Positions 1 through 55,122 of a stretch of 64,000 nucleotides of DNA are shown here, piece by piece. The stretch is from contig NC_081331.1 of the NCBI RefSeq assembly GCF_022539665.2, forward strand, positions 11,160,001 to 11,224,000. Direction: 5' to 3'. Within the stretch, counting starts at the first letter, position 1. Each line of letters starts with the position of its first letter. The notes below the pieces were generated by a model. It was not told where the DNA came from. It searched no databases and saw nothing but the letters and a program-made list of their open reading frames with translations. Source of the DNA: Daphnia carinata. Lineage: Eukaryota. The translations under genes and the position numbers were made by a program.

Positions 1-2167
1 TGGCTGGAGGAACAATTGAAAAATGGATAAGATAATACAACAAAAGGATGATAAGTATAAACATTATTCTATTTGTTTTGAATTATTAATTATTGTTTAT
101 TAGATCAAATTATGGACCTGCAGGCTCAATTATTGCAACAGCACAAAATATTAGATAACAGCAAAGCTAAGGATGGTAAGGCCTAATACATAATGATTCT
201 ATTTATTTGCTTTTATTGATTTGTGTTTTGTAGCTCAAAGTTTGAGTCTACAAGCTCAGCTAGGGGAAAAGAACAAATTGGAACGGAACAGTTTCCAAAC
301 AGTGAAGGAGGTTTTTCCAAACTCAAACCTGACTGAACATGAGGATGAATTGGCATTAGGCGAACACAGTCAGGTACCTAAACTTTTCAAATAAGAATTC
401 AAAATAAGTATAGAATTTTAACAAACAATTATTTATTGTTTAGTTATTCAGTCTACCACCTGACAGTGTGTTAAATTTAAATTCTGTTAGTGCTGCACAA
501 AAAGAATCGTTAGTAATCAGCCCATGCAGTGAAGGAAGTGAACAATTGTGGGACCGTATTTGGGCCAAAAATGGGTGTGGTATGGAAACCAAGATATGGC
601 ACAAGTTCAACATGAAACATGGATTAGGTACTTTTCGGTTTTATGTCTATTGAAAAAGTATTTTTAATGCTATTATTTTGCATTCACAGTATTTAATGGG
701 GGATCAAATCAAGTCTGGAAGTGTTACAGGATGGAAGAGTCAGCCTACAGATGAAAAAACACTGAGAGTGCATTACCATTAAGGTATGAGGTAAAGTAAT
801 AGAGTATGCAAATTGTCTAATGAGAAGTACCATCTTGTGTTAATGAATCCAGTACAACAGCAATCCTTTATAGTTCTGTCACAGCTAGAAACCTCAAATA
901 ATTCTGCTTCTCTGTCTAAAGAACAACTTGTCCTTTACGTTCAGAGTGTTGGGGAAACTGGGTACTTAAATGGCCCTAAAGATGTTTTAATTTTGCTGCC
1001 ATTGCAGAGATGAACATCATACATGGACTCTTTAGGTATGAAAGGATTTTTCTTCAAATAATTTTGAATTTATGACGAAGCATTTCTCCTCCTTTTTGCC
1101 AACCAGGTCTAATCTACCAAAAAAAATTTTATCCAAAAGGAAAGGATTTTCATGTACTGGGAACACAACTATCAACAATGCAACATTGTACAGGTGCTAG
1201 TTTATCATTCAAGAGCCTTATACAATGATGTTAATCTGCAATTTGTATGTCCTTCCCCAAGCTTCCACCAGAAGTTGAATCTGAGTCATGTAAGTTACAT
1301 GATCAACAGTTGATATGTTTAACGGTGTTGTTTTTCTTTTCTCAATATAGGTTAATAGTAACATTGCATCTGAAAAAATTCTTGGTTGGGGCAAGACACT
1401 GAATAAATTGTATTGATTGGATGGATGACATGACATTTCTATACTTAATTCGGATTCCCCAGACGGTATTTGATATTAAAAAAATTGAAGTGCATATCTG
1501 GGCTCCCTTCTTTTCTGAAGCCCCGTTTCCCCTTGACTCGTAATAAGCCCGTAGGGGGTCATGCCCCTACTGTACGGTATATATAAAAATAACATATACC
1601 GAGGTTTGGAGGGCTCTGGCCGGAAAGGGGACGTGGGGTGCCGCTTAGTCCGATGATGTGTTCACGGAGGGCGATGTGGCTACCCACAAATCCGAACTAA
1701 AGGTTAATCGCTCCTGTAAAAATGTTCCAAATCTTCAGCTCTTCTTCCGGCTTCTCTTAGCCAATCACCGGGTAATCTCCCCGGTGGGTCAACAAGGCAG
1801 TGTCTCCCCCTGCCTGGGTTGACGGCAACTTTTGAAAGGGCTATTGTGCCTTTTTAAAGTTGCAAAAATAATTGTAATGTGCAGAGAATTGTCAATAAAA
1901 TTTTTTTATAAAATATTTTTTGCAAAATTTGTTTCTTTCATTGTCTGTGTTAGCTGTGTTCACACATTACATTTATCAACTTTTTTTTTTTTGTTTTGCT
2001 TTATTTATTTTTGTGACCTGTGATGGTAAGCATTGTTTCCATTGGTTTATCGTTTATCTGTAAGCATTCAATTATTATCCAGGGATCGAACCCTGGATGT
2101 TCGGCGTACCGCGCCGATGCTCTACCAGTGAGCCATGAATCATATGATGACAAGTTGGCTTTTTTCT
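1..2167 (+). mobile_element. Partial copy of the type-A arm of the inverted-repeat element (5' end outside the window; truncated just after the first tRNA-like cassette)
   Basis: Appears identical to 7353-9519 (offset 7352; ORF-track peptides identical). Homologous to 50298-52330 and, in reverse, to 52790-54938. Identity with the 7353 copy stops at ~2168. Confidence 0.85.
2079..2135 (-). pseudogene. tRNA-derived cassette 1 (A box, D arm, anticodon arm with GGT, B box; no acceptor stem)
   Basis: Reverse complement TGGCTCACTGGTAGAGC-A-TCGGC-GCGGTAC-GCCGA-ACATC-CAGGGTTCGATCCCTGG. Confidence 0.75.
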
Positions 2168-4000: not shown

Positions 4001-6520
4001 TATGGCAATCCGTTTTACCAAAACAAAACAAAAAAAAATATCGCATTTTTTTTTCTTTTTTCTCCCTTAGCCATCTACGTCGTCTTGGTAACTACATAAA
4101 TTCGTAATGGTAGCAGCTAGTTAGGACGACGGCAGCTAGCACACACACACAGACAGCAGCAGTTAATAGTTATGGATAGGCTTGACGGTACTGGCGCGCT
4201 AGCATTCTGTCAAATATTCGGTGTAATTTTGTTGTTTGATACTTCAACACATTAAAATAATTCGAAAAAATCCTACATATTGAATCGAATATCTCTTTTA
4301 TTATCAGGTTTCATTATTTTATTAACCTAGATACTCGTTCATGAAATGTAAATTAAATTCGATGACAGCTGAAGAATCGCAACATCAAATTCTTGTATGT
4401 CATACATTTCGTAACGTTCATCCCTCTTCAAGAACTCATAAAAGTGTTTTTGAATTTTTTTTTATTGATTTTCAGGCAATGATTGAAAAAGTCAATAACT
4501 CATCAATGACCACACAAGTTTACGCGAGTGGCGAATTCCTGTTTGGATTTGGGTTTCCCATGCCGCAGAAGAAGGGGAAAGAGTAAACTGGCAACAATGT
4601 AGATCTAAACTCCTTCTCCTGGGTTTTGGCACACAGCAGTCCGAACTTTCTTATTTTGTTACGTTTCCTTCATTAAATAACTAATTGTCGGATTCGCATT
4701 TTACCGTCAATTAGCTTTCACTATTCCTTTTGGTATGTACCAAACAGTGTAAGACAAGGAACTTAAAGGTTGGTGTGCAACAGAGGTTAAAACATTTTGA
4801 AGCATATTGTTTGGATATCTTAAGTGATAGTGATGGGAGCTCCGTTATTTTATTCAGATTCGTAACATCATCAGTTTAATAAATTTTTAAAAGGCTACAT
4901 TCAATTTCTGTAAGAGTGTTCAATGGGAAATACTTCATTTTATGTTTCACTAGGAAAAAAGATGGAAGACTTGTAAATGAAATGCCAAAGTGCTCTCTTG
5001 CAATGCCAAGTAAACCATGAATTGACAGTTCCATGTTAAATTTAATCTATACTTCAACCTTAAACAAACAAATTGTTTTAATCTGTTCAGGTTTCAAGAA
5101 TTAACGTGCTCAACCACATTGCTCTACTGTAAAATGACCAGATACTGCTTTGGTTGCCCATGCCAGTATTTCTCTAGTAAAACACTCTTATGTGAGCTTA
5201 ACGTAAAATTAATCAGCAAAATGTTTTATTACGACACATTTTCTTTCTTTTCATAGCTGAATGGTTGTAGTGAATTTGAAAAGGATTCTCATTGCGGCCA
5301 GCCATCCCAGATTTAAGAAAGGTTGGCAGCAAAGGTGTCAATTTTCATGATTCGTCAATCACATTCCAAGTTGAGGTAGGGGTGTGTTTCTTATTAAATT
5401 TATATTGACTTGATGATGAGTGAAATGATTGCCTAATTACAAATGGCAGCTTGTCTGCAAGTTTACTTTAAACATAACACTTTCACGTACATTTGACACA
5501 GCCAATATTATCCTTATTTGTTCTTAGTTTGCTATTTGGTTGTCTAATTGGAATTTTAGTTTTTGAATGAGATTCAGGGTTGATGTTGCCGGTGTTACAT
5601 TAAAGGATTAAGTTCTTATTCACTAACATTTCAAGGACCAATGTCTTCTTAAAATTTACTTGTAAGTAAAAATGAAGCTTTTATATAATTATGTATTATC
5701 TATGTAACTCTTTCCTATTCAATAGGAAAGGATTTAGTTCATTCTGTGAACATATCTACCAACGATGCAAGCTCCGATGGGACGTATCGTATATTGTGCG
5801 TGTATATATCAAGTCTGTTATGATTTGCAGTATCTCTTCCGAAGCTTCTCTCAGAAGAATATGCTAAGCAATCAACTCACGAATCATATAAGGTACGAAA
5901 TATATATATGAAATCAAGAATTTTTATGCTTAATGGAGTTTTATTGTCTTTTTGTAGAATAATAATAAATTTTAATCTGAAAAGGTTCCTTGTTTGGGGC
6001 AAGGTACTGAATAAAGTATTATGATTGGATACACTACATGGAATTTCCATACTTTATTCACGTTCTCATTTAAAACCGGTATTTAATATTTAAAAAATTC
6101 AAGTGCATATCTGGGCTCCCTTCCTTTCCGTAGCCCCGTTTCCCCTTGACTCATAATAAGCCCGTAGGGGGTCATGCCCCTACTGTACGGTATATATAAA
6201 AAAAACATACACCGAGGTTTGGAGGGCTCTGGCCGGAAAGGGGACGTGGGGGTCCGCTTAGTCCGATGAAGTGTTCATGGAGGGCTCTGTGGCTACCCAC
6301 AAATCCGAATTAAAGGTTAATCGCTCCTGTAAAAATGTTCCATTTCTTCGGCTCTTCTTCCGGCTTCTCTTAGCCAAGCACCGGGTAATCTCCCCGGTGG
6401 GTCAACCAAGGCAGTGTCTCCCCCTGCCTTGGTTGGCGGCAACTTTTGAAAGGGTTGTTTTCCCTTTCGAAAGTTGCAAAATCATTTACGTGTGCAGAGT
6501 AATGTCAATACAATTTTTTT
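4001..6520 (+). mobile_element. Solo type-B arm: same terminus and GC-rich module, different interior
   Basis: Starts TATGGCAATCCGTTTTACC + poly(A) + TCGCATTTT + TAGCCATCTA. Ends in a diverged GC-rich module (~6085-6520). The interior has short intron-like GT..AG segments and a last-exon peptide IIINFNLKRFLVW resembling type-A LIVTLHLKKFLVG. Confidence 0.7.
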
Positions 6521-6544
6521 TATTTAAAAAAAAGCAAGCATATA

Positions 6545-7045
6545 TCTTTTTTACTTTTGTCAAAATCGGAAAAAATCGAAATCTCTCGGATTGCGAAGAA
6601 AATCCCACCGTATAACCCAATTTTAACGCTGATTCAGAAAAAGCCATTTGTTTTTATCTCATGTAAGCCGTTTTTGAAATAATCGTCATTTAAAGATAAA
6701 GTCGGGCTTATTTTTTTAGACCCAACTTCCCCGTTTTTTACGTTTTATTCAAAAACTATGAGTCCCACGAGAAAACAACTCTCATATTCGTGATGCTTGT
6801 TCAATTCTGCATCGAAACCATGTATTTAAAGCGAAATCTAAAATTTTGCCAAAATTGAATAAGTAAGAAGGCCTTCTCACTTTTCCAATTTTCTTCAAAT
6901 CCTAGATTTCAAGAAAAATACACTATTCCGATTTGAAATTGATCGCTGATCACAAAAATGGGGCATATTTTTATATCAGGCCTCTAGTTTTTAAATTAAC
7001 CGTAAAAAACAGAAAGTCGGGCTTATTTAGTCGGGCTTAAAATTT
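6545..7045 (+). repeat. AT-rich dispersed repeat with internal subrepeats (TTTTGTCAAAATCGG.., AACGCTGA.., GTCGGGCTTA)
   Basis: The same motifs recur in the same orientation at 49230-50110 and 55123-55860. Confidence 0.7.
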
Positions 7046-7149
7046 TTATCGGTCAGTGTATGTAGAGAATTAATTAGAAACGTGACCGTTAGATGGCGAT
7101 AGCAGTAAAACAGAAAAAAAAGGCCCATATTTTTTATTTTTATTTTGGG

Positions 7150-7199
7150 TAAAACGGATTGCATATATGGCAATCCGTTTTATATGGCAATCCGTTTTA
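7150..7199. other. End-to-end junction of element termini: 13 bp inverted repeats around a 7 bp spacer, plus a third 13-mer
   Basis: TAAAACGGATTGC-ATATATG-GCAATCCGTTTTA-TATG-GCAATCCGTTTTA read directly. Confidence 0.8.
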
Positions 7200-9430
7200 C
7201 ATAAAAAAAAAAAAAATAAAAAATCGCACTTTTTTCTTTTTTTCCGACACGTAGCCATCTACCGCTCAGACTCATTATTACTGGCGTAGGCAATTTCAGT
7301 CCATTGGATGCCATTCGCAGTTAGTTCAGTAGCGTGGATGGAGGATAACGCGTGGCTGGAGGAACAATTGAAAAATGGATAAGATAATACAACAAAAGGA
7401 TGATAAGTATAAACATTATTCTATTTGTTTTGAATTATTAATTATTGTTTATTAGATCAAATTATGGACCTGCAGGCTCAATTATTGCAACAGCACAAAA
7501 TATTAGATAACAGCAAAGCTAAGGATGGTAAGGCCTAATACATAATGATTCTATTTATTTGCTTTTATTGATTTGTGTTTTGTAGCTCAAAGTTTGAGTC
7601 TACAAGCTCAGCTAGGGGAAAAGAACAAATTGGAACGGAACAGTTTCCAAACAGTGAAGGAGGTTTTTCCAAACTCAAACCTGACTGAACATGAGGATGA
7701 ATTGGCATTAGGCGAACACAGTCAGGTACCTAAACTTTTCAAATAAGAATTCAAAATAAGTATAGAATTTTAACAAACAATTATTTATTGTTTAGTTATT
7801 CAGTCTACCACCTGACAGTGTGTTAAATTTAAATTCTGTTAGTGCTGCACAAAAAGAATCGTTAGTAATCAGCCCATGCAGTGAAGGAAGTGAACAATTG
7901 TGGGACCGTATTTGGGCCAAAAATGGGTGTGGTATGGAAACCAAGATATGGCACAAGTTCAACATGAAACATGGATTAGGTACTTTTCGGTTTTATGTCT
8001 ATTGAAAAAGTATTTTTAATGCTATTATTTTGCATTCACAGTATTTAATGGGGGATCAAATCAAGTCTGGAAGTGTTACAGGATGGAAGAGTCAGCCTAC
8101 AGATGAAAAAACACTGAGAGTGCATTACCATTAAGGTATGAGGTAAAGTAATAGAGTATGCAAATTGTCTAATGAGAAGTACCATCTTGTGTTAATGAAT
8201 CCAGTACAACAGCAATCCTTTATAGTTCTGTCACAGCTAGAAACCTCAAATAATTCTGCTTCTCTGTCTAAAGAACAACTTGTCCTTTACGTTCAGAGTG
8301 TTGGGGAAACTGGGTACTTAAATGGCCCTAAAGATGTTTTAATTTTGCTGCCATTGCAGAGATGAACATCATACATGGACTCTTTAGGTATGAAAGGATT
8401 TTTCTTCAAATAATTTTGAATTTATGACGAAGCATTTCTCCTCCTTTTTGCCAACCAGGTCTAATCTACCAAAAAAAATTTTATCCAAAAGGAAAGGATT
8501 TTCATGTACTGGGAACACAACTATCAACAATGCAACATTGTACAGGTGCTAGTTTATCATTCAAGAGCCTTATACAATGATGTTAATCTGCAATTTGTAT
8601 GTCCTTCCCCAAGCTTCCACCAGAAGTTGAATCTGAGTCATGTAAGTTACATGATCAACAGTTGATATGTTTAACGGTGTTGTTTTTCTTTTCTCAATAT
8701 AGGTTAATAGTAACATTGCATCTGAAAAAATTCTTGGTTGGGGCAAGACACTGAATAAATTGTATTGATTGGATGGATGACATGACATTTCTATACTTAA
8801 TTCGGATTCCCCAGACGGTATTTGATATTAAAAAAATTGAAGTGCATATCTGGGCTCCCTTCTTTTCTGAAGCCCCGTTTCCCCTTGACTCGTAATAAGC
8901 CCGTAGGGGGTCATGCCCCTACTGTACGGTATATATAAAAATAACATATACCGAGGTTTGGAGGGCTCTGGCCGGAAAGGGGACGTGGGGTGCCGCTTAG
9001 TCCGATGATGTGTTCACGGAGGGCGATGTGGCTACCCACAAATCCGAACTAAAGGTTAATCGCTCCTGTAAAAATGTTCCAAATCTTCAGCTCTTCTTCC
9101 GGCTTCTCTTAGCCAATCACCGGGTAATCTCCCCGGTGGGTCAACAAGGCAGTGTCTCCCCCTGCCTGGGTTGACGGCAACTTTTGAAAGGGCTATTGTG
9201 CCTTTTTAAAGTTGCAAAAATAATTGTAATGTGCAGAGAATTGTCAATAAAATTTTTTTATAAAATATTTTTTGCAAAATTTGTTTCTTTCATTGTCTGT
9301 GTTAGCTGTGTTCACACATTACATTTATCAACTTTTTTTTTTTTGTTTTGCTTTATTTATTTTTGTGACCTGTGATGGTAAGCATTGTTTCCATTGGTTT
9401 ATCGTTTATCTGTAAGCATTCAATTATTAT

Positions 9431-9487
9431 CCAGGGATCGAACCCTGGATGTTCGGCGTACCGCGCCGATGCTCTACCAGTGAGCCA
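9431..9487 (-). pseudogene. tRNA-derived cassette 1 (GGT anticodon loop)
   Basis: Identical to 2079-2135; A box TGGCTCACTGG, B box GGTTCGATCCC. Confidence 0.75.
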
Positions 9488-9610
9488 TGAATCATATGAT
9501 GACAAGTTGGCTTTTTTCTAGTCACTTGTGGACTTGCATTTACACTTAGAATAAAACTGAAATGCAATTCTGCAACATACTCTTCTACCTTTATTCTACT
9601 TCATTTTAAC

Positions 9611-9681
9611 ACATCTAGTAAGGTTTGAACCCAGGGTAACAGTTATCGCAGCTGAATGCTCTACCACAGAGCTATGGACAT
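9611..9681 (-). pseudogene. tRNA-derived cassette 2 (degenerate)
   Basis: Reverse complement ATGTCCA-TAGCTCTGTGGTAGAGC...CTGGGTTCAAACCTTAC-TAGATGT. A and B boxes and a partial acceptor stem are present; the anticodon arm is poorly paired. Confidence 0.6.
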
Positions 9682-9784
9682 TATAAAAGCAATACAAAGA
9701 TAAACATATAGTTGTGAAAGACTGCATAAACATCCTAGACGATAACATATGATATGCGATAATAAAAATTTTATATATATCTCG

Positions 9785-9840
9785 TGGCTCAATGTTAGAG
9801 CATCGGCGTTGCACGCTGAATGTCTGAGGATCGATTCCCA
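9785..9840 (+). pseudogene. tRNA-derived cassette 3 (TGC, Ala-like anticodon loop)
   Basis: TGGCTCAATGTTAGAGC-A-TCGGC-GTTGCAC-GCTGA-ATGTCTGAGGATCGATTCCCA; B-box variant GGATCGATTCC. Confidence 0.7.
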
Positions 9841-11139
9841 TGCCAGTAAAACAATATACAAATAAAAAATTACTTCAGAAAATATCAAGGTATTACACGT
9901 TGTTCCTTGTCTAAGTTCATGAATTCAAAAAGTGTAATAAATAATAATTGAATACTTACAGATAAACGATACAACGGTGGCAAAAACAATAAAATTGAAT
10001 TGCGCTAGCTGAATAAAAAAAAAAGTTGATAAATGTAATGTGTGAACACAGACAATGAAAAAAAACAAATTTTGCAAAAATATTTTATAAAAAAAAAATT
10101 ATTGACAATTCTCTGCACATTACAATTATTTTTGCAACTTTAAAAAGGCACAATAGCCCTTTCAAAAGTTGCCGTCAACCCAGGCAGGGGAGACACTGCC
10201 TTGTTGACCCACCGGGGAGATTACCGGTGATTGGCTAAGAGAAGCCGGAAGAAGAGCTGAAGATTTGGAACATTTTTACAGGAGCGATTAACCTTTAGTT
10301 CGGATTTGTGGGTAGCCACATCGCCCTCCGTGAACACATCATCGGACTAAGCGGCACCCCACGTCCCCTTTCCGGCCAGAGCCCTCCAAACCTCGGTATA
10401 TGTTGTTTTTATATATACCGTACAGTAGGGGCATGACCCCCTACGGGCTTATTACGAGTCAAGGGGAAACGGGGCTACGGAAAGGAAGGGAGCCCAGATA
10501 TGCACTTCAATTTTTAAATAATTAATACCGTAATACGCGGGAATACACAGGCGACTGATGGAGGGAAATTCAATTCCGTACTTCAAATTATTATAACTTT
10601 TCGTTATCACATCCCAACCAGAAACCTTCGCAGGTTCACTATTGCTATTAATCTAAATTAAGAAAATAAAACATAGATAAGCATGAGACGTTCTTATTGA
10701 TATCGCTTACATGGTACATAAATTCATCATCTGCCATATTCCTGTAGATTCCTGGCAGGAGGTTCTAAAAGGCTATGCAGTTGCAAATGATCACCATAGC
10801 CAAAACTTGAATACGAAAGTTTTGGGAGAACCTTTCGTGTTGGCCACAGAGACCTTACATGGGCTTTCCGATTGGACGTTCCATGCACCTTAAAAAAAAA
10901 AAAAAGAAAGGTTACATAGTGGTTGTTTTGATCACTAAACGTGAAGGTAAAGAAGGTACATGGTCTCGGCAGTCTTGACGACAATTTCCATTATAACCTC
11001 ATATCACCTCATTTTATGGGAAAAGAATTTCGTAGGCGACGGTTCAGAATAGAAAATGGTTGCATTCAAATCTTTTGGCAGGTGGGAATAAGGCATGTCG
11101 CCTTAGGGAGTGCAAACCGCGATTTTCAAAACTATTAAA

Positions 11140-11995
11140 TGCTTGTTAGCCATTGAAAGATTGCTGGCTGACGCAGACAATCGTTTGGGACATGATTAAT
11201 GAGCTGCTTCGTGGATAAAGCTCGTTTTTTTAGTCCTCTCCAGGATGACATGAATTCCAGCATCTTCTACACATGTATCAGCACTTTGCGATACACCAAT
11301 TAAAACAATTTAAAAATTTAAAATAGTACCACCTTTTAATGTTTTTGACTCCATGATTCATCTTCGATGCAATTGTGAAGGCAAGACAACTGACCTATGG
11401 TGATTTATTCATCACACTTGCCATAACCGTTTTCCCAATGTATCAGCTATTCTGCCAACAGTAGTTTACTAATACAACATTGACGATTAAAATTAGAAAA
11501 CTAAACAAACTCAGCAGAAAAGCATTACCAGGGAGTAACATCTTGCATGTTGAAGAAGAATCCTTGGTTTATCATGTACATGGCAGAATATCCACATTGC
11601 CTGGATGGCGCAATCCTTTGCATAATCACACAAATAGTAACTAAAACATACTGAATTGAAACAAAATTTAAATGAAGTTTTACCCAACAGCCGCCTGCAC
11701 CTCTGAATTCCAAAACTACGTCTACACATTCATATCAAGCTTTTCCAGCATGTCTCACCTTTGGCATTTGTTTAAATCATTCCTTCAAAAATTTTTAATA
11801 AATGTAAATAAAGTAAACAATTGATATTTATGTGACGTCGGAGTACCATTTGGCTATCAAGCATTCCATACAAGATAGGCATTTTGAAGAATCAGTGGCA
11901 GCAATCAAGTGCTACAATTTGAATATGGGCTAGGTGTTATAGTCGCTGAGGGCTCTCAATCCCTAAACTGAACCTTGCTCACTGATGTGACAATC
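11140..11995 (-). pseudogene. Decayed intron-containing Crypton-like (DUF3504/ZMYM-type) tyrosine recombinase
   Basis: Minus-strand exon fragments in canonical order: EQG/SLGIESPQRL (11980-11940), DYAKDCAIQAMWIF..RILLQ (11640-11530), CW..YIGKTVMASVMNK..KMNHGVK (11460-11340), EDAGIHVILERTKK/RALST (11267-11210). Contains stops and frameshifts. The whole arm-Y gene spans roughly 10590-12185. Confidence 0.5.
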
Positions 11996-12245
11996 TATAA
12001 AAGGATTTAAATCTTAATTAATGAGACATGCAGGATACTGTATAAAATTCTAGTAAAGATGGTACCAAATGCTGAGTTACTAGAAATTTTGCCTGGGAAA
12101 TCTCCAACTGACCATGTGAAACATAAGTCAGCTGTACTGCATTTGCAAATCCATTGTTCAAGTAACCAAATCCAATCCATGTCTGAAGGAATGAATGAGA
12201 AAATTAAATAGGAATCTGGCCGCTAGATGGCCATAGCTGTAAAAA

Positions 12246-12523
12246 GGTCTAAAATGAATAATTTTTATTGCAATGAATAGCCCTTAATAAGGGCTTTCGA
12301 TTTCTCTAAAATTTAAAGCAGGATTTCAATAACAAAAAAAAATTCATATATCTTTTTCAGAGTTTTTGCGATCCAAAGATATAGTGGATCCATACGGTAA
12401 AACAAAACAAAATGCTTTCGTTCTCAATTTTTTTGTTTTGGAAAATTCTACTTTAAATTTTAGAGAAATCGAAAGCCCTTATTAAGGGCTATTCATTGCA
12501 ATAAAAATTATTCATTTTTGACC
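12246..12523. mobile_element. MITE-like hairpin with a near-perfect ~70 bp terminal inverted repeat
   Basis: GGTCTAAAATGAATAATTTTTATTGCAATGAATAGCCCTTAATAAGGGCTTTCGATTTCTCTAAAATTTAAAG (12246-12318) is inverted at 12451-12523. No clear TSD. Confidence 0.7.
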
Positions 12524-14139
12524 CATAGTTTGCCCGTTAATAAAATTTTTTTTCGATGGTTTATAGGGGGAGGGGAAAACTACGGAAAATTGTAAACTTT
12601 GGGCCTTTCGTTCGGGTATTTGGGATGAATATTATGTATATTAAGTATAATATTTAGATTCCTTGTAATACCTGGAATGTTTTAGTGTGTATTAAACAAT
12701 AAAATGTGTCAAATCAGTTGGACAAATTCTAAATTATTAACGGCCAATCATATTAGAGACGACAGAAGCCATTATTTTTAGGCGGGTTTTTTTAATTTTA
12801 AATGGTTATGGATGTAATAAAAATACCAAAACAGTTTTACTATTATATGTTAGTCTTGTGGTGTACCGTGTCGATATTACAATAAAAAAAACAGAAATTA
12901 TTTTCATTCGGTTTATTTTTCATATTCTTTTACATTCAATTATTAAATAATTAATGGTTACTACATGAAACATCATCACTTTCATTTCCTTAGCTGTTGC
13001 CTTTCATGATACCTATATTGTTTGTATCCTTATTTACACGAAACTGTAAATGTAAAAAATAAATTTAAGATGACTTCTGTTAATAAAAATATGCCTGATT
13101 CAAATTACCTGTAACAGTTTCGATCTGTGTTCCACCACTATCTGGGATTGCAGACGTTGCCCAGCAATTAAGTCTTCTTCATAAATGTTATTTAATTCTT
13201 TTAACAGACATGTTCCTACAGAAATATAATTGTTTAGTTAAAATTTATCAATAATTCATGAATTTATTTACCTACTGAAAGCTCTAAGGGACTGATCTTC
13301 TGTTCGACTCCAGCTATCAGACAGATCAGGATAGTACCTCATTGTTAGATTGAGATAGGCTAACACTGTCTTCTACTACTGAGCAATCAAACTTAGGAAG
13401 TTGATATGATGCTCCAGCATGTTTTTCCTTTGTGGATTAAGAACTATTTTAAAAGGATAGATAAAAAATCAAATGTTATTGCTGCGAACCCAGCACTAGC
13501 CTGTTAAGATCTTTTATACCTTTTCTGTAATTTCTTTCTCCCTGAAATGTCTTCCTTTTTCCTTTCTTCCACGCACACTGCCGCTCAGTTTTCCTTTTTT
13601 TTTTTTTAATTTTGTGAATAATCTTGGATCTATTTTGAAATTTGACACTAGCAGACGATTTGACGCAGACGACACTTCAACAGCTGAGATGTAGCTTGGT
13701 TTCAGTGGTGGTGTGTACTGCAGTCACAGTGGGAGAGCCAATCAAATTGCGAGAATCGAGTGCCGCTTACAACCCGAACGGTCGAATCAACTCGCGGAGA
13801 CCATGTTGCATACGGTACAGCATAATCGCCACACCAACGCCATCGGGTATCTACAAGATAAAAGCAATCTTGACACTAGAGCCTTGGTGGAATCCACGTA
13901 ACAGGTTCTATTTACTTTCCCAGTATTTCGTGTTTCCGCTCTATCAATAGAAATTTACAGTCAACATCTCATAGAGGGATCTCAGTTGTAATTGATTTAA
14001 CAAGCTGTTTTTTCCTGCTGTCGTTAAACGGCGAAGGTACTTTCTTTGCTCGGTTATTGATATTATTACAGTCTAAAAGTTATTTTCTTATTAGTTAACG
14101 TCAAACATAAGTCGAGACACTATCGTCCTGAGTGATAGT

Positions 14140-17039: not shown

Positions 17040-19053
17040 ATGGTTCGAAGCGAAGGACTGCTGTTTTCCCTGGTGTTTTTAGTCACACATCTAACTGGAA
17101 GTGAACATCAGACTAATGGCGCAAACCATCAACTGGCTGACGGATTTCAATCTTTCTTCAAGACTAGATACAAATCGTGGCTACAAGTGTTAGACGGAAC
17201 AAATTTAAAAAAATATACTACTGGCGGCAATGAACTGACAACTGTAGATGCAGTGACAGCACAAAAGAAAATAAACAATTTAGTGTTAACAAGTCCTAAT
17301 ATAGAAGGTTCGATCGGTCCCATCAAAGCTCTCCGCGTACCTTATTTTTTACGTTTCGGAAAAAATGCGCAAGAAGACAGACAAGCAAATAGCCTTACCT
17401 GCACATGCGAACCGACGCCAACTTGTTCAACCACTTGCACGTCACTCGAGATACGGTGTGGACGAACATGTACACACAGCACAATTTTCACGGCTGAATG
17501 TGGATGCCACGGAGGACGCCACCAAGCTACGTCCACAAGTTCAAGCGTTAGCAGCAATGGCTGTGCCACATTAAATGCTGGATGTCTCGCAACGGTCGGA
17601 GCTGTTGGTGCTGTTGGAGCTGTTGTAGCAGCTGCTGCAGCAGTGGCAGTGGCTGTCGCTGTTGCGGTTCCAGTAGGCCTCCAGTTATCCGGAGTGGGTC
17701 CGTCTGAAACAGAACGATTCGATCCACAAGTTTTAGATATCGGCGACATTTTTGGCCAACGAACACCTGTAAACAACCTTACATTTCCTGTGAACGGAAA
17801 TGATTTCCCAGCTGATGGTTGCGGAGACAATTCAGTGAGATTCAGTGACGGAAATTGCTATCCAGTTTTGACGAGAGGTCCTTGTGCCGATCCTCACCGA
17901 TGGGTTACTCTAGATCCTGCGACAATCCAAGTATCACACACAAATCACATACAGAATATGGAAACGTCAATACTTTAAAGTGGTTCATTTCAGGCACGTT
18001 GCAGTCCACGTCTCTGTGGTCGCCAAAGAGTATTCGTTGGTCAAGATGGACTTTGTCACGACATCAACGATCCATCTGGATGTAGCGGTGGCCGACGTCT
18101 TTATTACACAGCTTACGGGGACCCACTCTGTGACTGCCCTATCGGGCAATATCCTTTTCCGGACATTCAAGACGATTGCGTTCCACTGTTCTCGAAAGGT
18201 AATCACAAAATCCTGCTACTTTCCTTGTTATGTCTGAAAGCTTGGCAGCAAACATCGATGCATCACGATCAGGCGAAACATACGTTTTCATGCCGATTCT
18301 TTTCTAACTTTTACAAGGTCCCTGTCCCGATGGGAATGTAGTTTCCATTACTCCGGAGGGTCGATTGGGCTGTACGCCAGAGGAATGTCAATCAATCGAT
18401 GGTCAAGATAACTCTTTGCAGTTAGTGTCTACTGGGAGTGGAGTTTGTTACCCTCTCGGTTCACGCGGACCCTGTACAAATACTTCTCAGTTGCTGGGAT
18501 ACGATGTGTTTAGGCGACGTTTGCAGTGCGTCAATATTCTAGACCCTTCTTCGCCTTATTTCTCTTCGCCAGAAGAAGAAGATTTAATAGATAGCGTCTA
18601 CAACCAGTTTGTCGCGGAATACGATGACTATCAGATCTCACTCATCTATCAAAATGCAGTGGAAAGAAAGGACAAAGGCCAACGCAGACAAGGTGGAAAT
18701 ACCGCAGGAGCACTTCAATTTCCTAGCTCGTCTCCTGATGCTCTCTTACAGCCATGTCGGAATGGTGCTCGAGAAGGAATAAATTTTAAGTGCACCAATC
18801 CGCTAGTGTAAGACAATGACACAATTAAAAAGTGGAAATACTGGCTGTTAAAATTTTTGATTTCGCTTCTTTTAGGTCAAATTCAAACGCGAGGCCAGTA
18901 CAACCAGCAGTTAGTTCCGCATTTAAGTGTCCAGGGAATGGAAATTTACAAGCTACGGGTCAATGCGCGAGCGACAACCGTGCTGCTAGCTGTGGACCTT
19001 CGTTTCAGTTTAATTCAAATACTGGACAATGCCGCAGTGTTTTCAGACGTTAA
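17040..19053 (+). CDS. Secreted/membrane Cys-rich DUF4789-like repeat protein, paralog 1 (4 exons)
   Basis: Signal-like N terminus. Repeated CYPxxxRGPC / [10 protein letters not shown]..CVPLFxxGPC modules. Exons ~17040-17930, 17994-18198, 18318-18808, 18876-19053. Clearly paralogous to 21848-23536 and 56204-57580. Confidence 0.8.
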
Positions 19054-20641: not shown

Positions 20642-23600
20642 TTAGCCGTCTAGTTGACCGCATTCGTAAGCGTTCTGGTAGCTCTGCGTATTCTTGTCTT
20701 CCGAATCAAGCTTAATCATATCATCAATACGCAGAATGGTAATAGCCGCTTCAGTAGCAAACTTCAGAGACTTAATCTTGGAAACAGCAGGCTCAAAGAC
20801 ACCAGCTTGTCGGTTGTCCCTAACGGCACCTTCCATCAAGTCCAACCCGATCCTTGACAAACGAGAAAGATATAACAATAATTCTTAACAGCGCTAATAA
20901 AACATTATTTACCATTTCAAATTAGCGTGCTCAGGCTTTGACTGCGATGAGTGATGGTAAGAACGCATTTTAGCCACGAGATCAGTCGCGTCCTTGGCTG
21001 CGTTGACTGCTAAGGTCTTGGGAATGACCAATAGCGAATGGGCGAATTCTGCAATCGCTAGCTGTTCTCGAGAGCTCTGTATGTCATAAAGTATTATTAC
21101 AATAATTTAACTTATTTTCCTTTGAAAATGTGTCAACTTACCAATGATGTAGCGAAGCTTTCCAAATAAATAGAGAGTGCAACCTCCACAGCGCCGCCAC
21201 CGACGACTAGAGTTTTGGATTCTAGAACGCGTTTGACGACGCAAAGGGCATCGTGCACCGAGCGTTCCATTTCGTCGCAGTAGAAGTCATTAGGACCACG
21301 CAGAATAATGGAAGCAGCTGTGCGCGCTTTGGTTCTACGTTGAAGGAAATGGAAGACGTGAAAAATTACAAATGTTTCTGGAAAGCCATAAACTAGAATT
21401 CTTCACAATGCCATAATGCTACGGCTGCTTAGAGCAAAGACAGGCTTGCACGGAAATTCAAATTCGGTCAGCTTATATGGTACTATGCACATTCCAAATA
21501 GTATGGGTAACAGACGAAACAAAACTGCACCTCTAGTCAACAAAAAGAAGGCTCATCATTCGCTTAAGGCTGGAGAGGAAAAGAAGGTCACCATCCCATT
21601 CTGAAAATCTAAGATTATTTCTACATGTTGAACTGCGTTCTGAAAGACGAGCCTCGGGCTTATATCCGACAAAGTAAGCTCTATACGGTATTTTTTTTTT
21701 TTGTGGGACTTCCGCACATGAGGACCTCCTTTCTAGAAGATGGCTAAAGCAGAAGGTACAACATACCTTCTTTGTTTCTCTTATGCATACAGGCACTATA
21801 ATCTAGTCTCACAGTGGCAGCCGGCTCGGTTAAAAGCATAACATAAGATGCAGTGCAACAAGAGACTACTTTTCCTGTTCTCGGTATCTATTCTTGGCTT
21901 TGGTGATCAACAAAGTCATGCACTGGATCCTAATGTGAGAAGATCGTGGATACGAGAGCTCGCGACACGCGTGAAAGCTAAAAAGGGTATCTACGAGAGT
22001 GAAACAACCCCTTTTTCGGGAAAAAACGAACATCAGTACCACAATGAACACCCAACTGCGGAGGCAGCTTTGGTGACTATGGAAACAACGCAGGAATTTT
22101 CTAAGAGTTTTGGCTTCGGAGCTATCAGAACACAGCACAGGCAAAATACGTATCCTTACCAAACGCAAACTACGTATCCTTACCCAACGACAACCCTCCC
22201 ACGGTTACCCACGGTCCCTTCTGTTGCAATAGCACTTGGAGCTATAGCGATCGCAATCGCAGTAGGCGTTGCTACCACACATAGTACGGAAAAACAAATA
22301 GACGAAATCGATCTCGTCATCAGGCAATTTGACAATCAAACCCCTATAAATGAGTGTCCGATGCCTGTATTTGGAAACGATTTTCCGCGCGATGGCTGTG
22401 AAGATAACGCCGTACGAGTAGCAAATGGAAAGTGCTTCCCCGTTCTGACACGAGGCCCTTGTGAAAATAACCGTCATTGGATAACGATTGATCCCATTAC
22501 ATTAAAGGTAAATGAAGAGCAATTGTTTGAATAAAAGAATTGAATTTTCCATGGAAGGAATGGTCAATTTCAGGGAAGATGCACTCCAAGACTTTGTGGT
22601 CGAGAAAGAGTACTGGTGGTACGGGACGGACTTTGTCACGACGTCAACGATCCGAACGAATGTCAAGGTGGGCGGCGTCTTTATTATACAGCTTACGGAG
22701 ATCCGATATGTGATTGCCCCATTGGGCAATATCCTTTCCCTAACCCTCACGACAACTGCGTCCCACTTTTTACCCAAGGTATTCATTCAATCGTTACACG
22801 AAAGTACAACATAACAAAGATTTATAATAAGTCAACTTTCATCCACTATGCTCTGCATAAAGGACCTTGCCAAAATGGATACGTAGTAACAATTGGTGAA
22901 CAGGGTCGACTTGGCTGTACTCCAACCAAATGTGAATCAATCGACAATGACAACTTGTCCCGGCAGCTTGTGCCGGCCAACGATGGCGTATGCTACGCCC
23001 TTGGGTCACGTGGACCCTGCGCCACTACATCTCAGCTCTTAGGTTACGATATCTTCAAGCGCCGTGATCATTGTGTCGATATTCTAAACCCCTCCTCGCC
23101 CTATTTTTCTTGGCCCGCACAAGACGATTTTCTTGATAGCATCTACAATCAGCTCCATCCGGAATATGACGAATTTAGAGTATCCTTTGTTTACGAAAGT
23201 CTAACGGGGAAGAACGAAACACAACAACGAAGACAAGGTGCGAGCACAATAGGAGCAATCCAATTTCCTAGCACGTCAATTGGAAGTCTTTTACATCCTT
23301 GTCGCACTGGAGCTCGACGAGGAATAAATTTTAAATGCACCAATCCTTTAGTGTAAATCAATAACATTTTATATCTAAAACAACGCAACGGAATATTTAA
23401 TCCTATCTCTTTTTTTTGTAGGCCTACACTAAGGACAATGCAGCTCTTGCAAGTTGTTCGACCTGGATTGAGAACAAACTGCGAAGGCAACGCTTTGTTT
23501 GTCGCTGCCACTGGCCAGTGCCGAGCCAGGTTCTAACCCATGAACTAACAATAACGCTCAAAATGTTTCTAACAGATAGCTTTTAACAAGATGTCTCGCA

Positions 23601-50110: not shown

Positions 50111-52450
50111 GAATATGGCAATCCTTTTTATATGGCAATCCGTTTTACATAAAAAAAAAAAAAAAATCACACTTTTTTCTCTTTTTTCTACCCGTAGCCA
50201 TCTACCAGTCGGTTTCGTTATTATAGGCATGTAAGCAATTTGAGTTAATTGTATCCCATTAGCAGTTAATTGAGTAGCGTGGCTGGAGAAAAACTCGTGG
50301 CTGGAGGAACAATTGAAAAATGGATAAGATAATACAACAAAAGGATGGTAAGTATAAAGATTATTATATTGGTTTTCAATTATTAATTATTGTTTATTAG
50401 ATCAAATTATGAAGCTGCAGGCCCAATTATTGGAACAACACAAAATATTGGATAACAGCAATGCTAAGGATGGTAAGGCCTAATACGTAATGATTCTATT
50501 TATTTGCTTTTATTCATTTGTGTTTTGTAGCTCAAATTTTGAGTCTACAAGCTCAGCTAGGGGAAAAGAACAAATTGGAACGGAACAGTTTCCAAACAGT
50601 GAAGGAGGTTTTTCCAAACTCAAACCTAACTGAACGTGAGGATGAATTGGCATTAGGCCTAAACTTTTCAAATAAGAATTCAAAATAAGTATAGAATTTT
50701 AACAAACAATTATTTATTGTTTAGTTATTCAGTCTACCACCTGACAGTGTGTTAAAGTTAAATTCTGTTAGTGGTGCACTAAAAGAATTGTTAGTAATAA
50801 GTCCATGCAGCGAAGGAAGTGAACAATTGTGGGACCGTATTTGGGCTGAAAATGGGTGTGGTACGGAAACCCAGAAATAGCACGAGTTCAACATAAAACA
50901 TGAATTAGGTACTTTTCGGTTTTTTGTCTATCAAAAGAGTATTTTTAATGCTATTATTTTGCATTCACAGAATTTTAGTGGGGGATCAAGTCAAGTCTCG
51001 AAGTGTAACAGGATGGAAGAGTGAGCCTACAGTTGAAAAACACTGAAAGTGCATTACCATTAAGGTATGAGGTAAAGTAATAGAGTATGCAAATTGTCTA
51101 ATGAGAAGTACCATCTTGTGTGAATGAATCCTGTGTAACAACAATCCTTTATAGTTCTGTTATAGCTAGAAGCCTCAAATAATTCTGCTTCTCTTGCTAA
51201 AGAACAACTTGTCCTTTACACTCAGAGTGTTGGTGAAGCTGGGTACTTAAATGGCCCTAAAGATGTTTCACTTCACTGGCATTGCAGCGATGAACATCAT
51301 ACATGGACTCTTTAGGTATGAAAGGAATTTTCTTGAAAAATTTTTGAATTTATGATGAAGCTTTTCTCCTCCTTTTTGCCAACCATGTCTAATCTACAAA
51401 AAAAAAATTATCCAATAGGAAAGGATTTTCAGCATACTGGGAACACAACTATCAACAATGCAACATTCTAGGGGTGTTATTTTATCCTTCAAGAGCCTTA
51501 TACAATGATTTTCATCTACAATTTGTATGGCCTTTCCCGAGCTTCTGCCAGAAGTTGAATCTATGAGTCATGTAAGTCACATGAGCAACAATTGAGATGC
51601 TTAATGGTGTTGTTTTTCTTTTCTCAGTGTAGGTTAATAGTAACATTGGATCTGAAAAAATTCTTGGTTGGGGCAAGACACTGAATAAATTGTTGTAATG
51701 ATTGGATGGATGACATGATATTTCTATACTTCATTCGGATTCCCGAGACGGTATTTGATATTTAAAAAATTGAAGTGCATATCTGGGCTCCCTTCCTTTC
51801 CGTAGCCCCGTTTCCCCTTGACTCGTAATAAGCCCGTAGGGGGTCATGCCCCTACTGTACGGTATATATAAAAACAACATATACCGAGGTTTGGAGGGCT
51901 CTGGCCGGAAAGGGGACGTGGGGTGCCGCTTCGTCCGATGATGTGTTCACGGAGGGTGACGTGGCTGCCCACAAATCCGAACTAAAGGTTAATCGCTCCT
52001 GTAAAAATGTTCCAAATCTTCAGCTCTTCTTCCGGCTTCTCTTAGCCAATCACCGGGTAATCTCCCCGGTGGGTCAACAAGGCAGTGTCTCCCCCTGCCT
52101 GGGTTGACGGCAACTTTTGAAAGGGCTATTGTGCCTTTTTAAAGTTGCAAAAATAATTGTAATGTGCAGAGAATTGTCAATAAAATTTTTTTTATAAAAT
52201 ATTTTTTGCAAAATTCGTTTCTTTCATTGTCTGTATTCGCTGTGTTCACACGTTACACTTTTTATATTTAGCTTGCTTAATTCACCTTTATTGTTTTTGT
52301 CACCTTTGATGGTAAGCATTGTTTCCATTGGTTTATCGTTTATCTGTAAGTATTATTTATTACACTCTTTGAATTTGAGAGACTCTCTCTTGAGATTCAA
52401 GGAACAATCTGGATATTTTATGAAGTAATTTTGTATTTTGTTTTAATCGT

Positions 52451-52507
52451 ATGGGAACCGATCCCCAGACATTCAGCGTGCAACGCCGATGCTCTAACAT
52501 TGAGCCA
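52451..52507 (-). pseudogene. tRNA-derived cassette 3 (TGC)
   Basis: Reverse-complement homolog of 9785-9840. Confidence 0.7.
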
Positions 52508-52617
52508 CGAGATACATCTAAATATTTTATTATCGCATATCATATGTTATCGTCTAGGATGTTTATGCAGTCTTTCACAACTATATGTTTATCTTTCTTT
52601 TGCTTCCATAAGGTTCT

Positions 52618-52681
52618 TAGCTCTGTGGTAGAGCTTTTATCTGCGATACCTGTTACCCTGTGTTCAAACCTCAGTAGATGT
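52618..52681 (+). pseudogene. tRNA-derived cassette 2 (degenerate)
   Basis: TAGCTCTGTGGTAGAGC...GTGTTCAAACC; homolog of 9611-9681. Confidence 0.55.
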
Positions 52682-52805
52682 GTAAAAATGAAGTAGAATA
52701 ATGTAGAAGAGTATATTGCAGAATTGCATTTCAGTTTTATTCTAAGTGTAAATGCAAGTCCACAAGTGACTAGAAAAAAAAGCCAACTTAAAATCATATG
52801 ATTCG

Positions 52806-52862
52806 TGGCTCATTGGTAGAGCATCGGCGAGGTATGCCGAACATCCAGGGTTCGATCCCTGG
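52806..52862 (+). pseudogene. tRNA-derived cassette 1 (GGT)
   Basis: TGGCTCATTGGTAGAGC-A-TCGGC-GAGGTAT-GCCGA-ACATCCAGGGTTCGATCCCTGG. Confidence 0.75.
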
Positions 52863-55122
52863 ATAATAATAGAATGCTTACAGATAAACGATAAACCAAT
52901 ACCCGTCACCTTACCATCAAATGTGACAAAAACAAATAAAGCAAAGCCAAAAAAAAAAAATTGATAAATGCAATGTGTGAACAAAGCTAACACAGACAAT
53001 GAAAGAAACGAATTTTGCAAAAAATATTTTAGAAAAAAAATTTTATTGACAATTCTCTGCACATTACAATTATTTTTGCAACTTTAAAAAGGCACAATAG
53101 CCCTTTCAAAAGTTGCCGTCAACCCAGGCAGGGGGAGACACTGCCTTGTTGACCCACCGGGGAGATTACCCGGTGATTGGCTAAGAGAAGCCGGAAGAAG
53201 AGCTGAAGATTTGGAACATTTTTACAGGAGCGATTAACCTTTAGTTCGGATTTGTGGGCAGCCACGTCACCCTCCGTGAACACATCATCGGACGAAGCGG
53301 CACCCCACGTCCCCTTTCCGGCCAGAGCCCTCCAAACCTCGGTATATGTTGTTTTTATATATACCGTACAGTAGGGGCATGACCCCCTACGGGCTTATTA
53401 TGAGTCAAGGGGAAACAGGGCTTCAGAAAAGAAGGGAGCCCAGATATGCACTTCAATTTTTTTAATATCAAATACCGTCTGGGGAATCCGAATTAAGTAT
53501 AGCAATGTCATGTCATCCATCCAATCAATACAATTTATTCAGTGTCTTGCCCCAACCAAGAATCTTTTCAGATCCAATGTTACTATTAACCTATATTGAG
53601 AAAAGAAAAACAACACCGTTAAACACATCAATTGTTGATCATGGAACTTACATGACTCATAGATTCAACTTCTGGTGGAAGCTTGGGAAAGGACATACAA
53701 ATTGCAGATTAACTTCATTGTATAAGGCTCTTGAATGATAAACTAGCACCTGTAGAATGTTGCATTGTTGATAGTTGTGTTCCCAGTACATGAAAATCCT
53801 TTCCTATTGGATAAAATTTTTTTTGGTAGATAAGACCTGGTTGGCAAAAAGGAGGAGAAATTCTTCGTCATAAATTCAAAATTATTTGAAGAAAAATCCT
53901 TTCATACCTAAAGAGTCCATGTATGATGTTCATCTCTGCAATAGCAGCAAAATTAAAACATCTTTAGGGCCATTTAAGTACCCAGTTTCCCCAACACTCT
54001 GAACGTAAAGGACAAGTTGTTCTTTAGACAGAGAAGCAGAATTATTTGAGGCTTCTAGCTGTGACAGAACTATAAAGGATTGCTGTTGTACTGGATTCAT
54101 TAACACAAGATGGTACTTCTCATTAGGCAATTTGCATTACTCTATTAATTTACCTCACACCTTACGGTAATGCACTCTCAGTGTTTTTTCATCTGTAGGC
54201 TCACTCTTCCATCCTGTAACACTTCCAGACTTGATTTGATCCCCGTTAAAATCTGTGAATGCAAAATAATAGCATTAAAAATACTTTTTCGATAGACAAA
54301 AAACCGAAAAGTACCTAATCCATGTTTCATGTTGAACTTGTGCCATTTCTGGGTTTCTGAACCACACCCATTTTCGGCCCAAATACGTTCCCACAATTGT
54401 TCAGTTCCTTCACTGCATGAGCTTATTACTAACGATTCTTTTAGGGCAGCACTAACAGAATTTAAATTTAACACACTGTCATGTGGTGGACTGAATAACT
54501 AAGCAATAAATAACTGTTTTTTAAAATTCTATACTTATTTTGAATTCTTATTTGAAAACTTTAGGTACCTGGCTGTGTTCGCCTAATGCCAACTCATCCT
54601 CACGTTCAGTTAGAGATGAGTTTTGAAAAACCTCCTTCACTGTTTGGAAACTGTTCCGTTCCAATTTGTTCTTTTCCCCTAGCTGAGCTTGAAGACTCAA
54701 AATTTGAGCTACAAAACACGAATGAATAAAAGCAAATAAATAGAATCATTACGTGTTCGGCCTACGATCCTTAGCTTTGTTATCTAATATTTTGTGTTGT
54801 TCCAATAACTGGGCCTGCAGCTTCATAATTTGATCTAATAAACAATAATTAATAATTGAAAACCAATATAATAATGTTTATACTTACCATTTTTTTGTTT
54901 TATTATCTTATCCATTTTTCAATTGTTCCTCCAGCCACGCGTTGTTCTCCAGCCACGCTACTCAATTAACTGCTAATGGGATACAATTAACTGAAATTAC
55001 TTACATGCCTGTAATAACGAAACCGACTGATAGATGGCTACGGGTAGAAAAAAGAGAAAAAAGTGCGTTTTTTTTTTTTTCCGCCATTTTTTTTTTTTTT
55101 TTATGTAAAACGGATTGCCATA

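What the first reader, a model, noticed from the sequence alone, without database searches (positions are those of the whole stretch)
9431..10075. Three outward-facing tRNA-derived Pol III cassettes at the element centre, with T-run avoidance up to a shared terminator
Seen: cassettes 1 and 2 point into one arm and cassette 3 into the other, so all run antisense to the converging arm genes. A boxes, D arms and the anticodon stems of cassettes 1 and 3 are kept in both copies, while their acceptor stems are lost. Cassette 1 differences between copies fall in loops. Downstream of cassette 3 here there is no TTTT until 10070, and downstream of cassette 1 in copy 2 none until 53013; both stop at the homologous AATTTTGC despite very AT-rich DNA. 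Inference: ~290 and ~210 nt Pol III RNAs, or TFIIIC insulator sites, maintained by the element.
Basis: partly seen in the sequence, partly recalled or inferred. Interest (0 to 1): 0.8.

Follow-up and report, generated by a model that had tools for sequence, protein, structure and literature searches.

The report
Transposon with built-in tRNA-derived barriers
A water-flea-type DNA transposon carries tRNA-derived promoter units between its two converging genes, each facing back toward a predicted gene end, and they likely act as polymerase III roadblocks that would stop transcripts running across the element's inverted repeat and folding into double-stranded RNA.

Summary
The three tRNA-like cassettes are real. 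They are the only A-box/B-box pairs in the 64-kb window, lack acceptor stems, and point outward as described. They sit at the centre of a multi-copy element with IS3EU-like ends, whose arm gene has relatives annotated in Daphnia. C1 and C3 are paralogues duplicated with the arms. They differ at 16 of 57 positions, but at only 1 of 18 D/anticodon-stem positions (P=0.008). Absence of TTT from all four tails is not (P=0.006, post hoc). The tails end in a T4/T5 cluster lying against a predicted poly(A) signal of the arm gene, just outside a ~400-nt structured block that is 94-100% conserved. Against function: cassettes are no more conserved than spacers between the two copies, copy 2's C3 B box is broken, and C2 is decaying. 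Best reading: Pol III/TFIIIC units likely kept as head-on barriers to Pol II read-through across the inverted blocks. No RNA or occupancy data were available. New variant of known tDNA/MIR barriers; interest 0.5.

The parts
9431..9487 (-). Cassette C1: tRNA-derived head (positions 8-65) with A box, D arm, anticodon arm, intact B box, no acceptor stem
9618..9674 (-). Cassette C2: tRNA-derived head, D stem and boxes kept, anticodon arm decayed; first T4 at 9556 (~130-nt predicted RNA)
9785..9841 (+). Cassette C3: paralogue of C1 (41 of 57 identical); B box valid here, A58->G in copy 2
9280..9430 (-). A-rich, TTT-free tail of C1 (54% T and GT-rich on the + strand, downstream of the predicted poly(A) signal)
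9842..10069 (+). A-rich, TTT-free tail of C3; first ~100 nt specific to C3, rest homologous to the C1 tail
9216..9279 (-). Predicted Pol III terminator cluster for C1 (T4 starting at 9279, 9265, 9252; T5 starting at 9220)
10070..10133 (+). Predicted Pol III terminator cluster for C3 (T4 at 10070, 10083; T5 at 10129)
9246..9251 (+). AATAAA, predicted poly(A) signal of the left arm gene (present in 3 of 4 arms; variant AATACA in relative A; absent in copy 1 right arm)
8832..9225 (+). Conserved structured block, left: end of last exon plus predicted 3' UTR with a row of hairpins; 94-100% identical per 50-nt bin among the four arms
10128..10520 (-). Conserved structured block, right (inverted copy)
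7375..8895 (+). Left arm gene (type L), intron-containing, decayed in this copy; N-terminal part 79-94% identical to a multi-locus 143-aa uncharacterized Daphnia carinata protein
10452..12180 (-). Right arm gene of copy 1 (type R): a different, decayed intron-containing gene sharing only the last exon (99 of 148 nt) and the block; start approximate
7166..7262 (+). Left end of copy 1: TATGG-type terminus (doubled at 7166 and 7183) and subterminal motif
50114..55122 (.). Copy 2: symmetric element with two L-type arms, centre inverted relative to copy 1, TATGG..CCATA ends, no 6-bp TSD
52451..52862 (.). Centre of copy 2: C3 52507-52451 (-), C2 52618-52674 (+), C1 52806-52862 (+); first T4 at 52213 (-) and 53013 (+)
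1..2167 (+). Exact duplicate of 7353-9519, including C1 at 2135-2079, broken just upstream of C1
4001..6530 (+). Distant relative A: same terminus, different gene, same block (44-49 of 50 per bin over 8834-9183), T8 on the outward strand at 6533, no cassette (cut by another repeat)

Best explanation
C1 and C3 are tRNA-derived A-box/B-box units duplicated together with the two arms of a DNA transposon, and they are likely kept as Pol III transcription units that would block Pol II from reading past each arm gene's predicted poly(A) site into the opposite inverted block. Shown: tRNA origin, outward orientation, C1/C3 paralogy, loss of acceptor stems, TTT-free tails, and a T-run cluster abutting AATAAA. 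Inferred: TFIIIC binds the boxes; Pol III makes ~220-nt (C1) and ~300-nt (C3) RNAs that stop at the first T4 or within the next 60 nt; the arm genes end at about 9260-9280; the head-on Pol III complex stalls Pol II, so no RNA spans both blocks and folds back into ~400 bp (copy 1) or ~2 kb (copy 2) of dsRNA that would feed RNAi. C2 is a decaying extra unit.
For: Only A+B pairs in the window; no free copies by covariance model. C1 vs C3: 16 of 57 differences, about the divergence of the neighbouring last exon (99 of 148 identical), yet 1 of 18 in D/anticodon stems, a G-U wobble (P=0.008; 1 of 14 outside the A box, P=0.04). B box valid in 5 of 6 cassettes. No TTT in 4 of 4 predicted C1/C3 transcripts whose tails are only 68-87% alike (P=0.0057 by column shuffle, about 0.016 given no T4; 0 of 57 and 0 of 28 composition-matched control windows lack TTT). 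T4/T5 cluster in 4 of 4 arms and T8 in relative A at the same boundary. AATAAA 25 nt from the first T4 in 3 of 4 arms. Block variation is tolerated better on the inward strand (6 pairs kept by one-sided change, covariation term 0.44, vs 2 pairs and 2.92), so the block belongs to the Pol II side. In DNA run X1 three contig ends or joints fall at 9488, the base before the A box. Precedent: TFIIIB/TFIIIC roadblock Pol II at yeast tRNA genes (PMC5052057, passages); an antisense Pol III-transcribed MIR interferes with Polr3e (PMC5358760, abstract and introduction).
Against: Between copies 1 and 2 cassettes are not more conserved than spacers (12 of 171 vs 18 of 239, P=1.0; C1+C3 5 of 114, P=0.36). 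Copy 2 C3 has lost A58; every A box has one mismatch. TTTT absence is not significant (P=0.35) and the TTT test was post hoc. The stem bias within the 5' half alone is borderline (5 of 14 vs 1 of 18, P=0.064), and template switching can keep hairpins perfect without selection (general knowledge). No compensatory change in C1/C3 stems. A barrier does not obviously need anticodon-stem conservation. In X1 contigs the block is far deeper (1556 on one invariant 136-nt contig) than C1 (53-145) or C3 (250-525), so many blocks may lack these heads (depth is not copy number). The poly(A) site is inferred; copy 1's right arm lacks AATAAA. The yeast roadblock peak lies upstream of tRNA genes, not at their 3' side as here.
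Confidence: 0.4

Rival explanations
1. Passive passengers: an old tRNA pseudogene cluster or tRNA-SINE landed beyond the ancestral gene's 3' end, was duplicated with the arm, and is decaying. The A-rich tail mirrors the U/GU-rich downstream element of the arm gene's poly(A) site.
For: No extra conservation between copies, broken B box in copy 2 C3, decayed C2; C1/C3 overall divergence equals that of the adjacent exon; inward strand 54% T after AATAAA; A12 run 86 nt into the C1 tail; tRNA-SINE families are listed for Daphnia (PMC8594854 Table 1, passages).
Against: Stem-sparing divergence (P=0.008) and TTT absence (P=0.006); no TSD; no free copy in the window; contig boundaries at the A box rather than at tRNA position 1.
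Confidence: 0.3
2. The RNA product matters: Pol III makes SINE-like or VA-RNA-like tRNA-headed RNAs (structured head, A-rich tail) that act in trans, as RNAi decoys or antisense regulators of the arm transcripts' 3' ends.
For: Anticodon and D stems are spared outside the promoter boxes (P=0.04); C1 folds into three arms (z=-2.9 and -2.4); TTT-free tails.
Against: Tails diverge 13-32% with indels; C3 folding is not above shuffles (z=-0.3 and -1.3); the predicted RNAs stop before the structured block.
Confidence: 0.2
3. TFIIIC-only sites (ETC/insulator type) with no productive transcription, separating the chromatin of the two arms.
For: B box valid in 5 of 6 cassettes while all A boxes carry a mismatch; C2 keeps its boxes despite an internal TTTT in copy 2.
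Against: Does not explain spared stems or TTT-free tails.
Confidence: 0.1

Closest known systems
tRNA genes as Pol II roadblocks in yeast (TFIIIB/TFIIIC; PMC5052057, passages)
   Same: Type-2 Pol III promoter placed where Pol II must terminate.
   Different: Here the units are decayed tRNA heads inside a mobile element, in an animal, and meet Pol II from their 3' side; function untested.
Antisense MIR in Polr3e (PMC5358760, abstract and introduction)
   Same: tRNA-derived Pol III unit antisense to a Pol II gene, acting by transcriptional interference.
   Different: MIR is a dispersed SINE co-opted by the host inside an intron; these cassettes are internal parts of a DNA transposon, placed after the predicted poly(A) site, one per arm.
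tRNA-derived SINEs
   Same: A/B-box head without acceptor stem, followed by an A-rich tail.
   Different: No TSD, no free copies in the window, no LINE-type tail recognised; tails run into the transposon's conserved block.
IS3EU/GingerRoot DNA transposons (PMC10045372, PMC12730594, passages)
   Same: TA..TA ends, here TATGG..CCATA, matching the TAYGG..CCRTA given for fungal IS3EU; two genes in opposite orientation as in TET+ IS3EU; IS3EU is listed for D. pulex (PMC8594854).
   Different: No 6-bp TSD and no transposase detected; inverted internal blocks and central tRNA-derived units are not mentioned in the passages read.
Dada transposons and viral Pol III RNAs (VA RNA, MHV68 TMERs) - recalled, no call
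   Same: Link between mobile elements and tRNA-type promoters.
   Different: Dada inserts into intact small-RNA genes and lacks TIRs; TMER hairpins lie inside the Pol III transcript, whereas here T-runs precede the hairpin block.

Membership tests
Functional tRNA gene | Acceptor stem and full cloverleaf | tested here: not met
   ARAGORN 0 genes; Rfam local matches cover model positions 7/8-63/64, or show unpaired acceptor columns
Functional tRNA gene | D, anticodon and T arms | tested here: met
   Met for C1, partly for C3, anticodon arm decayed in C2
Type-2 Pol III transcription unit | A box and B box at tRNA spacing | tested here: met
   5 of 6 cassettes pass with one A-box mismatch; copy 2 C3 fails at A58 (consensus recalled)
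Type-2 Pol III transcription unit | T-run-free body followed by a T4+ terminator | tested here: met
   4 of 4 C1/C3 units; not met for copy 2 C2
Type-2 Pol III transcription unit | TFIIIC/Pol III occupancy and a transcript | not testable with these tools
   No ChIP or RNA data were at hand
tRNA-derived SINE | tRNA-related head with internal promoter | tested here: met
tRNA-derived SINE | Target site duplication | tested here: not met
   Longest words shared by upstream and downstream flanks are 6-11-nt A-rich words not at the boundaries, 5 of 5 units tested
tRNA-derived SINE | Dispersed free copies | tested here: inconclusive
   None in 64 kb; in X1, 3 of 21 laid contigs leave C1 into other 3' sequence, one of them carrying the element's spacer; no genome held
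tRNA-derived SINE | Poly(A) or LINE-derived 3' end | tested here: inconclusive
   A12 run 86 nt into both C1 tails, A10 in one C3 tail; no LINE library available
IS3EU DNA transposon | TA..TA (TAYGG..CCRTA) termini with TIRs | tested here: met
IS3EU DNA transposon | 6-bp TSD | tested here: not met
   Copy 2 flanks do not match for either left terminus; copy 1 and A have no clean pair of ends
IS3EU DNA transposon | IS3-like DDE transposase | tested here: not met
   No transposase family in arm ORFs or stop-read-through frames; genes are decayed, so a non-autonomous derivative is not excluded
tDNA/MIR-type Pol II barrier | Pol III unit opposed to a Pol II unit | tested here: met
   Geometry; Pol II 3' end inferred
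tDNA/MIR-type Pol II barrier | Loss of the unit increases read-through | not testable with these tools
   Needs reporter or deletion experiments

The most novel reading that the evidence does not exclude
A eukaryotic DNA transposon family has domesticated tRNA promoters as a built-in anti-read-through module, one per arm, so that an element with long inverted repeats can express converging genes without producing the fold-back dsRNA that triggers host RNAi: a self-encoded, Pol III-based silencing-avoidance device.
Probability: 0.3. Interest if true: 0.8.

Novelty: new variant of a known kind. Interest (0 to 1): 0.5.

Why it matters
Inverted-repeat elements are prime triggers of RNA silencing. 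If a transposon keeps tRNA-derived Pol III units to terminate its own converging transcripts, it shows that elements can recruit the host's tDNA-barrier mechanism for themselves, and gives a compact natural test of Pol III-Pol II head-on interference in an animal. Six full-text searches listed no paper describing such an arrangement. Repbase and most subscription papers were not searchable, so absence from print is not established.

Tried and rejected
No whole genome is held, so family-wide covariation could not be tested. Sequencing-run search: no RNA holder listed; this says nothing on expression. X2 laid only 3 poly-T fragments. Exact pattern scans for the block hairpin or the C1/C3 head found nothing in viral, metagenome or prokaryotic genome contigs; P0001 found no viral locus. 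Longer-homologue searches found nothing. Atlas gave no hit at 0.9 or above for P0001 75-143 and no usable hit for the last exon. Parent tRNA isotype undetermined: phage best hits are Thr, Ile, Asn, Lys at ~75%; viral tRNAs sharing the D/anticodon pattern are His, Lys, Gly; the T-arm pattern is Lys in 33 of 92 tRNAs. Resemblances of C1 to metazoan Lys(UUU), C3 to Ala(UGC) and C2 to Cys are recalled and untested. Block as known ribozyme, 7SK, SECIS, telomerase RNA or Fanzor omegaRNA: no Rfam match at E<=10 over it and motifs not found by eye; rejected. Block as part of the Pol III transcript: rejected because T4/T5 runs precede it. TTTT avoidance as evidence: rejected. One of the 13 pairs given to model R1 and to the pair count was mis-registered (T54-C60), which lowers helix 3 and does not affect helices 1-2. 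Earlier scan notes held nothing relevant. No supplements were read.

Full report
Setting. The window is eukaryotic and intron-dense. It holds several copies of one element family: copy 1 from 7166, copy 2 at 50114-55122, an exact duplicate of 7353-9519 at 1-2167, and a distant relative A from 4001. All ends read TATGG..CCATA. This matches the TAYGG..CCRTA ends given for fungal IS3EU (PMC12730594, passages) and the TA..TA rule for IS3EU (PMC10045372, passages). No 6-bp TSD and no transposase were found, so the element is IS3EU-like but not filed as a member. The left-arm gene matches a 143-aa uncharacterized protein annotated at several Daphnia carinata loci, with a weaker D. magna relative. 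The host is therefore probably a Daphnia, and the family is multi-copy.

Architecture. Copy 2 is a true palindrome with two L-type arms. Copy 1 is not. Its right arm matches the left over about 10058-10520, drops to 99 of 148 identical in the last exon, and then continues as a different decayed gene, also pointing inward. Three divergent genes (L, R, A) share one block, 8832-9225. It is 47-50 of 50 identical per bin among the four arms and 44-49 of 50 in A over 8834-9183, against 89-96% between the outer arms of copy 2. The block folds far better than shuffles on both strands (z -5.45 and -4.01). Its variants keep pairing better on the inward strand. It is followed inward by AATAAA in 3 of 4 arms and a U/GU-rich stretch. 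I read it as the structured 3' end of the arm genes (inference). Five sites shared within each element but not between them show arm-to-arm homogenisation, so part of the conservation may be gene conversion.

The cassettes. C1 passes Rfam's tRNA threshold (29.6 vs 29 bits); C3 and C2 score 21.7 and 15.7. ARAGORN finds no tRNA, since acceptor stems are gone. A recalled A+B-box pattern hits 6 places in 128 kb of both strands, all cassettes; the seventh, copy 2 C3, fails at A58. A covariance model built from the six finds no further copy in the window beyond the duplicate at 2079-2135, three antisense matches over C1's palindromic T arm and one 11-nt fragment at E 3.7. C1 and C3 are 41 of 57 identical and lead into homologous tails, so they are the inner ends of the duplicated arms, not independent insertions. 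C2 is 32 of 57 identical to C1 and has unrelated flanks.

Signs of constraint. C1 and C3 differ about as much as the neighbouring exon, but only 1 of 16 differences falls in the 18 D- and anticodon-stem positions, and it is a G-U wobble (P=0.008; P=0.04 for the 14 positions outside the A box). Within the 5' half alone the contrast is borderline (P=0.064). There is no compensatory change in C1/C3. Between copies 1 and 2 the cassettes are not more conserved than the spacers (12 of 171 vs 18 of 239). C2 has 7 substitutions and an internal TTTT in copy 2.

T runs. The first TTTT positions are right, and all four arms stop at the homologous site. Among AT-rich background windows only 11 of 515 (230 nt) and 65 of 700 (150 nt) lack TTTT, but the tails are ~50% A. 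With composition kept, P is 0.54-0.92 per tail and 0.35 for all four. The skew itself could reflect the U-rich element downstream of the arm gene's poly(A) signal. However, none of the four predicted transcripts contains even TTT. That has P=0.0057 by column shuffle, about 0.016 given no T4, and 0 of 57 and 0 of 28 matched control windows behave so. This test was chosen after seeing the data. Directly after the tails come two or three T4 runs and a T5 within about 60 nt, and A has T8 there. Pol III would thus stop before the block, within 25-60 nt of AATAAA on the other strand.

Other copies. One DNA run (X1, contigs only) holds the family. A 136-nt contig over 9090-9225 has no difference from the window at depth 1556, although 404 of 578 laid contigs are under 95% alike. 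Summed depth is 53-145 over C1, 250-525 over the 3' part of C3 and 2.4 over C2 and the spacer beside it. The tool warns that this is not copy number. It suggests C1 and C3 are commoner than C2, and that many blocks lack these heads. Three contig ends or joints fall at 9488, the base before the A box, one returning to 9375 as a tandem unit. A retroposed SINE should keep the transcript's first bases, so a boundary at the A box fits selection on the promoter better (inference, one run). Three of 21 contigs leave C1 at its 3' side into other sequence; one carries the element's spacer, two may be true tRNA genes.

Mechanism. The geometry is gene -> block -> poly(A) signal | terminators <- tail <- C1 ... 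C3 -> tail -> terminators | block <- gene. Pol II passing either poly(A) site would run into an oncoming Pol III unit before reaching the inverted block. In yeast TFIIIB and TFIIIC roadblock Pol II at 132 of 272 tRNA genes (PMC5052057, passages). In mammals an antisense, Pol III-transcribed MIR reduces Polr3e by interference (PMC5358760, abstract and introduction). I therefore favour a barrier that limits fold-back dsRNA (0.4), over passive decay (0.3), a trans-acting RNA (0.2) and TFIIIC-only sites (0.1). Every functional step is inferred; no expression or occupancy data were at hand.

Novelty. The parts are known kinds: tRNA-derived heads, tDNA/MIR barriers, IS3EU-like ends. Their arrangement as a paired internal module of a DNA transposon did not appear in six searches (listings only). 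IS3EU structure is described as largely unexplored (PMC11934779, passages). Repbase entries and supplements were not seen and may bear on this. Verdict: real feature, new variant of a known kind, interest 0.5; 0.8 if the barrier role is shown.

Noticed in passing
window 8832-9225 (also 10128-10520, 6090-6490, 51765-52160, 53070-53465): A ~400-nt GC-rich block with a row of hairpins, nearly invariant across three otherwise divergent arm genes and identical over 136 nt in an outside run; no Rfam match. It is the most conserved part of the family and may be more important than the cassettes.
   Followed up: partly
window 10452-12240: Copy 1's right arm is a different decayed gene (type R) ending in a subterminal motif like that at 7090; copy 2 appears to have swapped it for an L-type arm at the shared block.
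   Followed up: partly
window 7150-7200 and 50114-50147: Abutted head-to-head termini and doubled 17-nt termini, reminiscent of IS3-type circle junctions or insertion next to existing ends (recalled).
   Followed up: no
window 8999-9034, 9282: Five sites shared by both arms of one copy but differing between copies: arm-to-arm gene conversion.
   Followed up: yes
window 1-2167 vs 7353-9519: 100% identical 2.2-kb duplicate 7352 bp apart, broken just upstream of C1; very recent duplication or assembly artefact.
   Followed up: no
window 12240-12525: ~290-bp MITE-like palindrome with ~70-bp arms interrupting the right end of copy 1.
   Followed up: no
window 6541-7045, 49223-50100, 55130-55780: A second AT-rich repeat family flanks or interrupts every copy of the element.
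   Followed up: no
window 17040-18821, 21848-23366, 56440-57229: Three paralogous genes, two with DUF4789 matches (one above the Pfam cut-off).
   Followed up: no
window 9375-9488 (run X1): A contig joint from 9488 back to 9375 suggests a copy with tandem C1 units.
   Followed up: no
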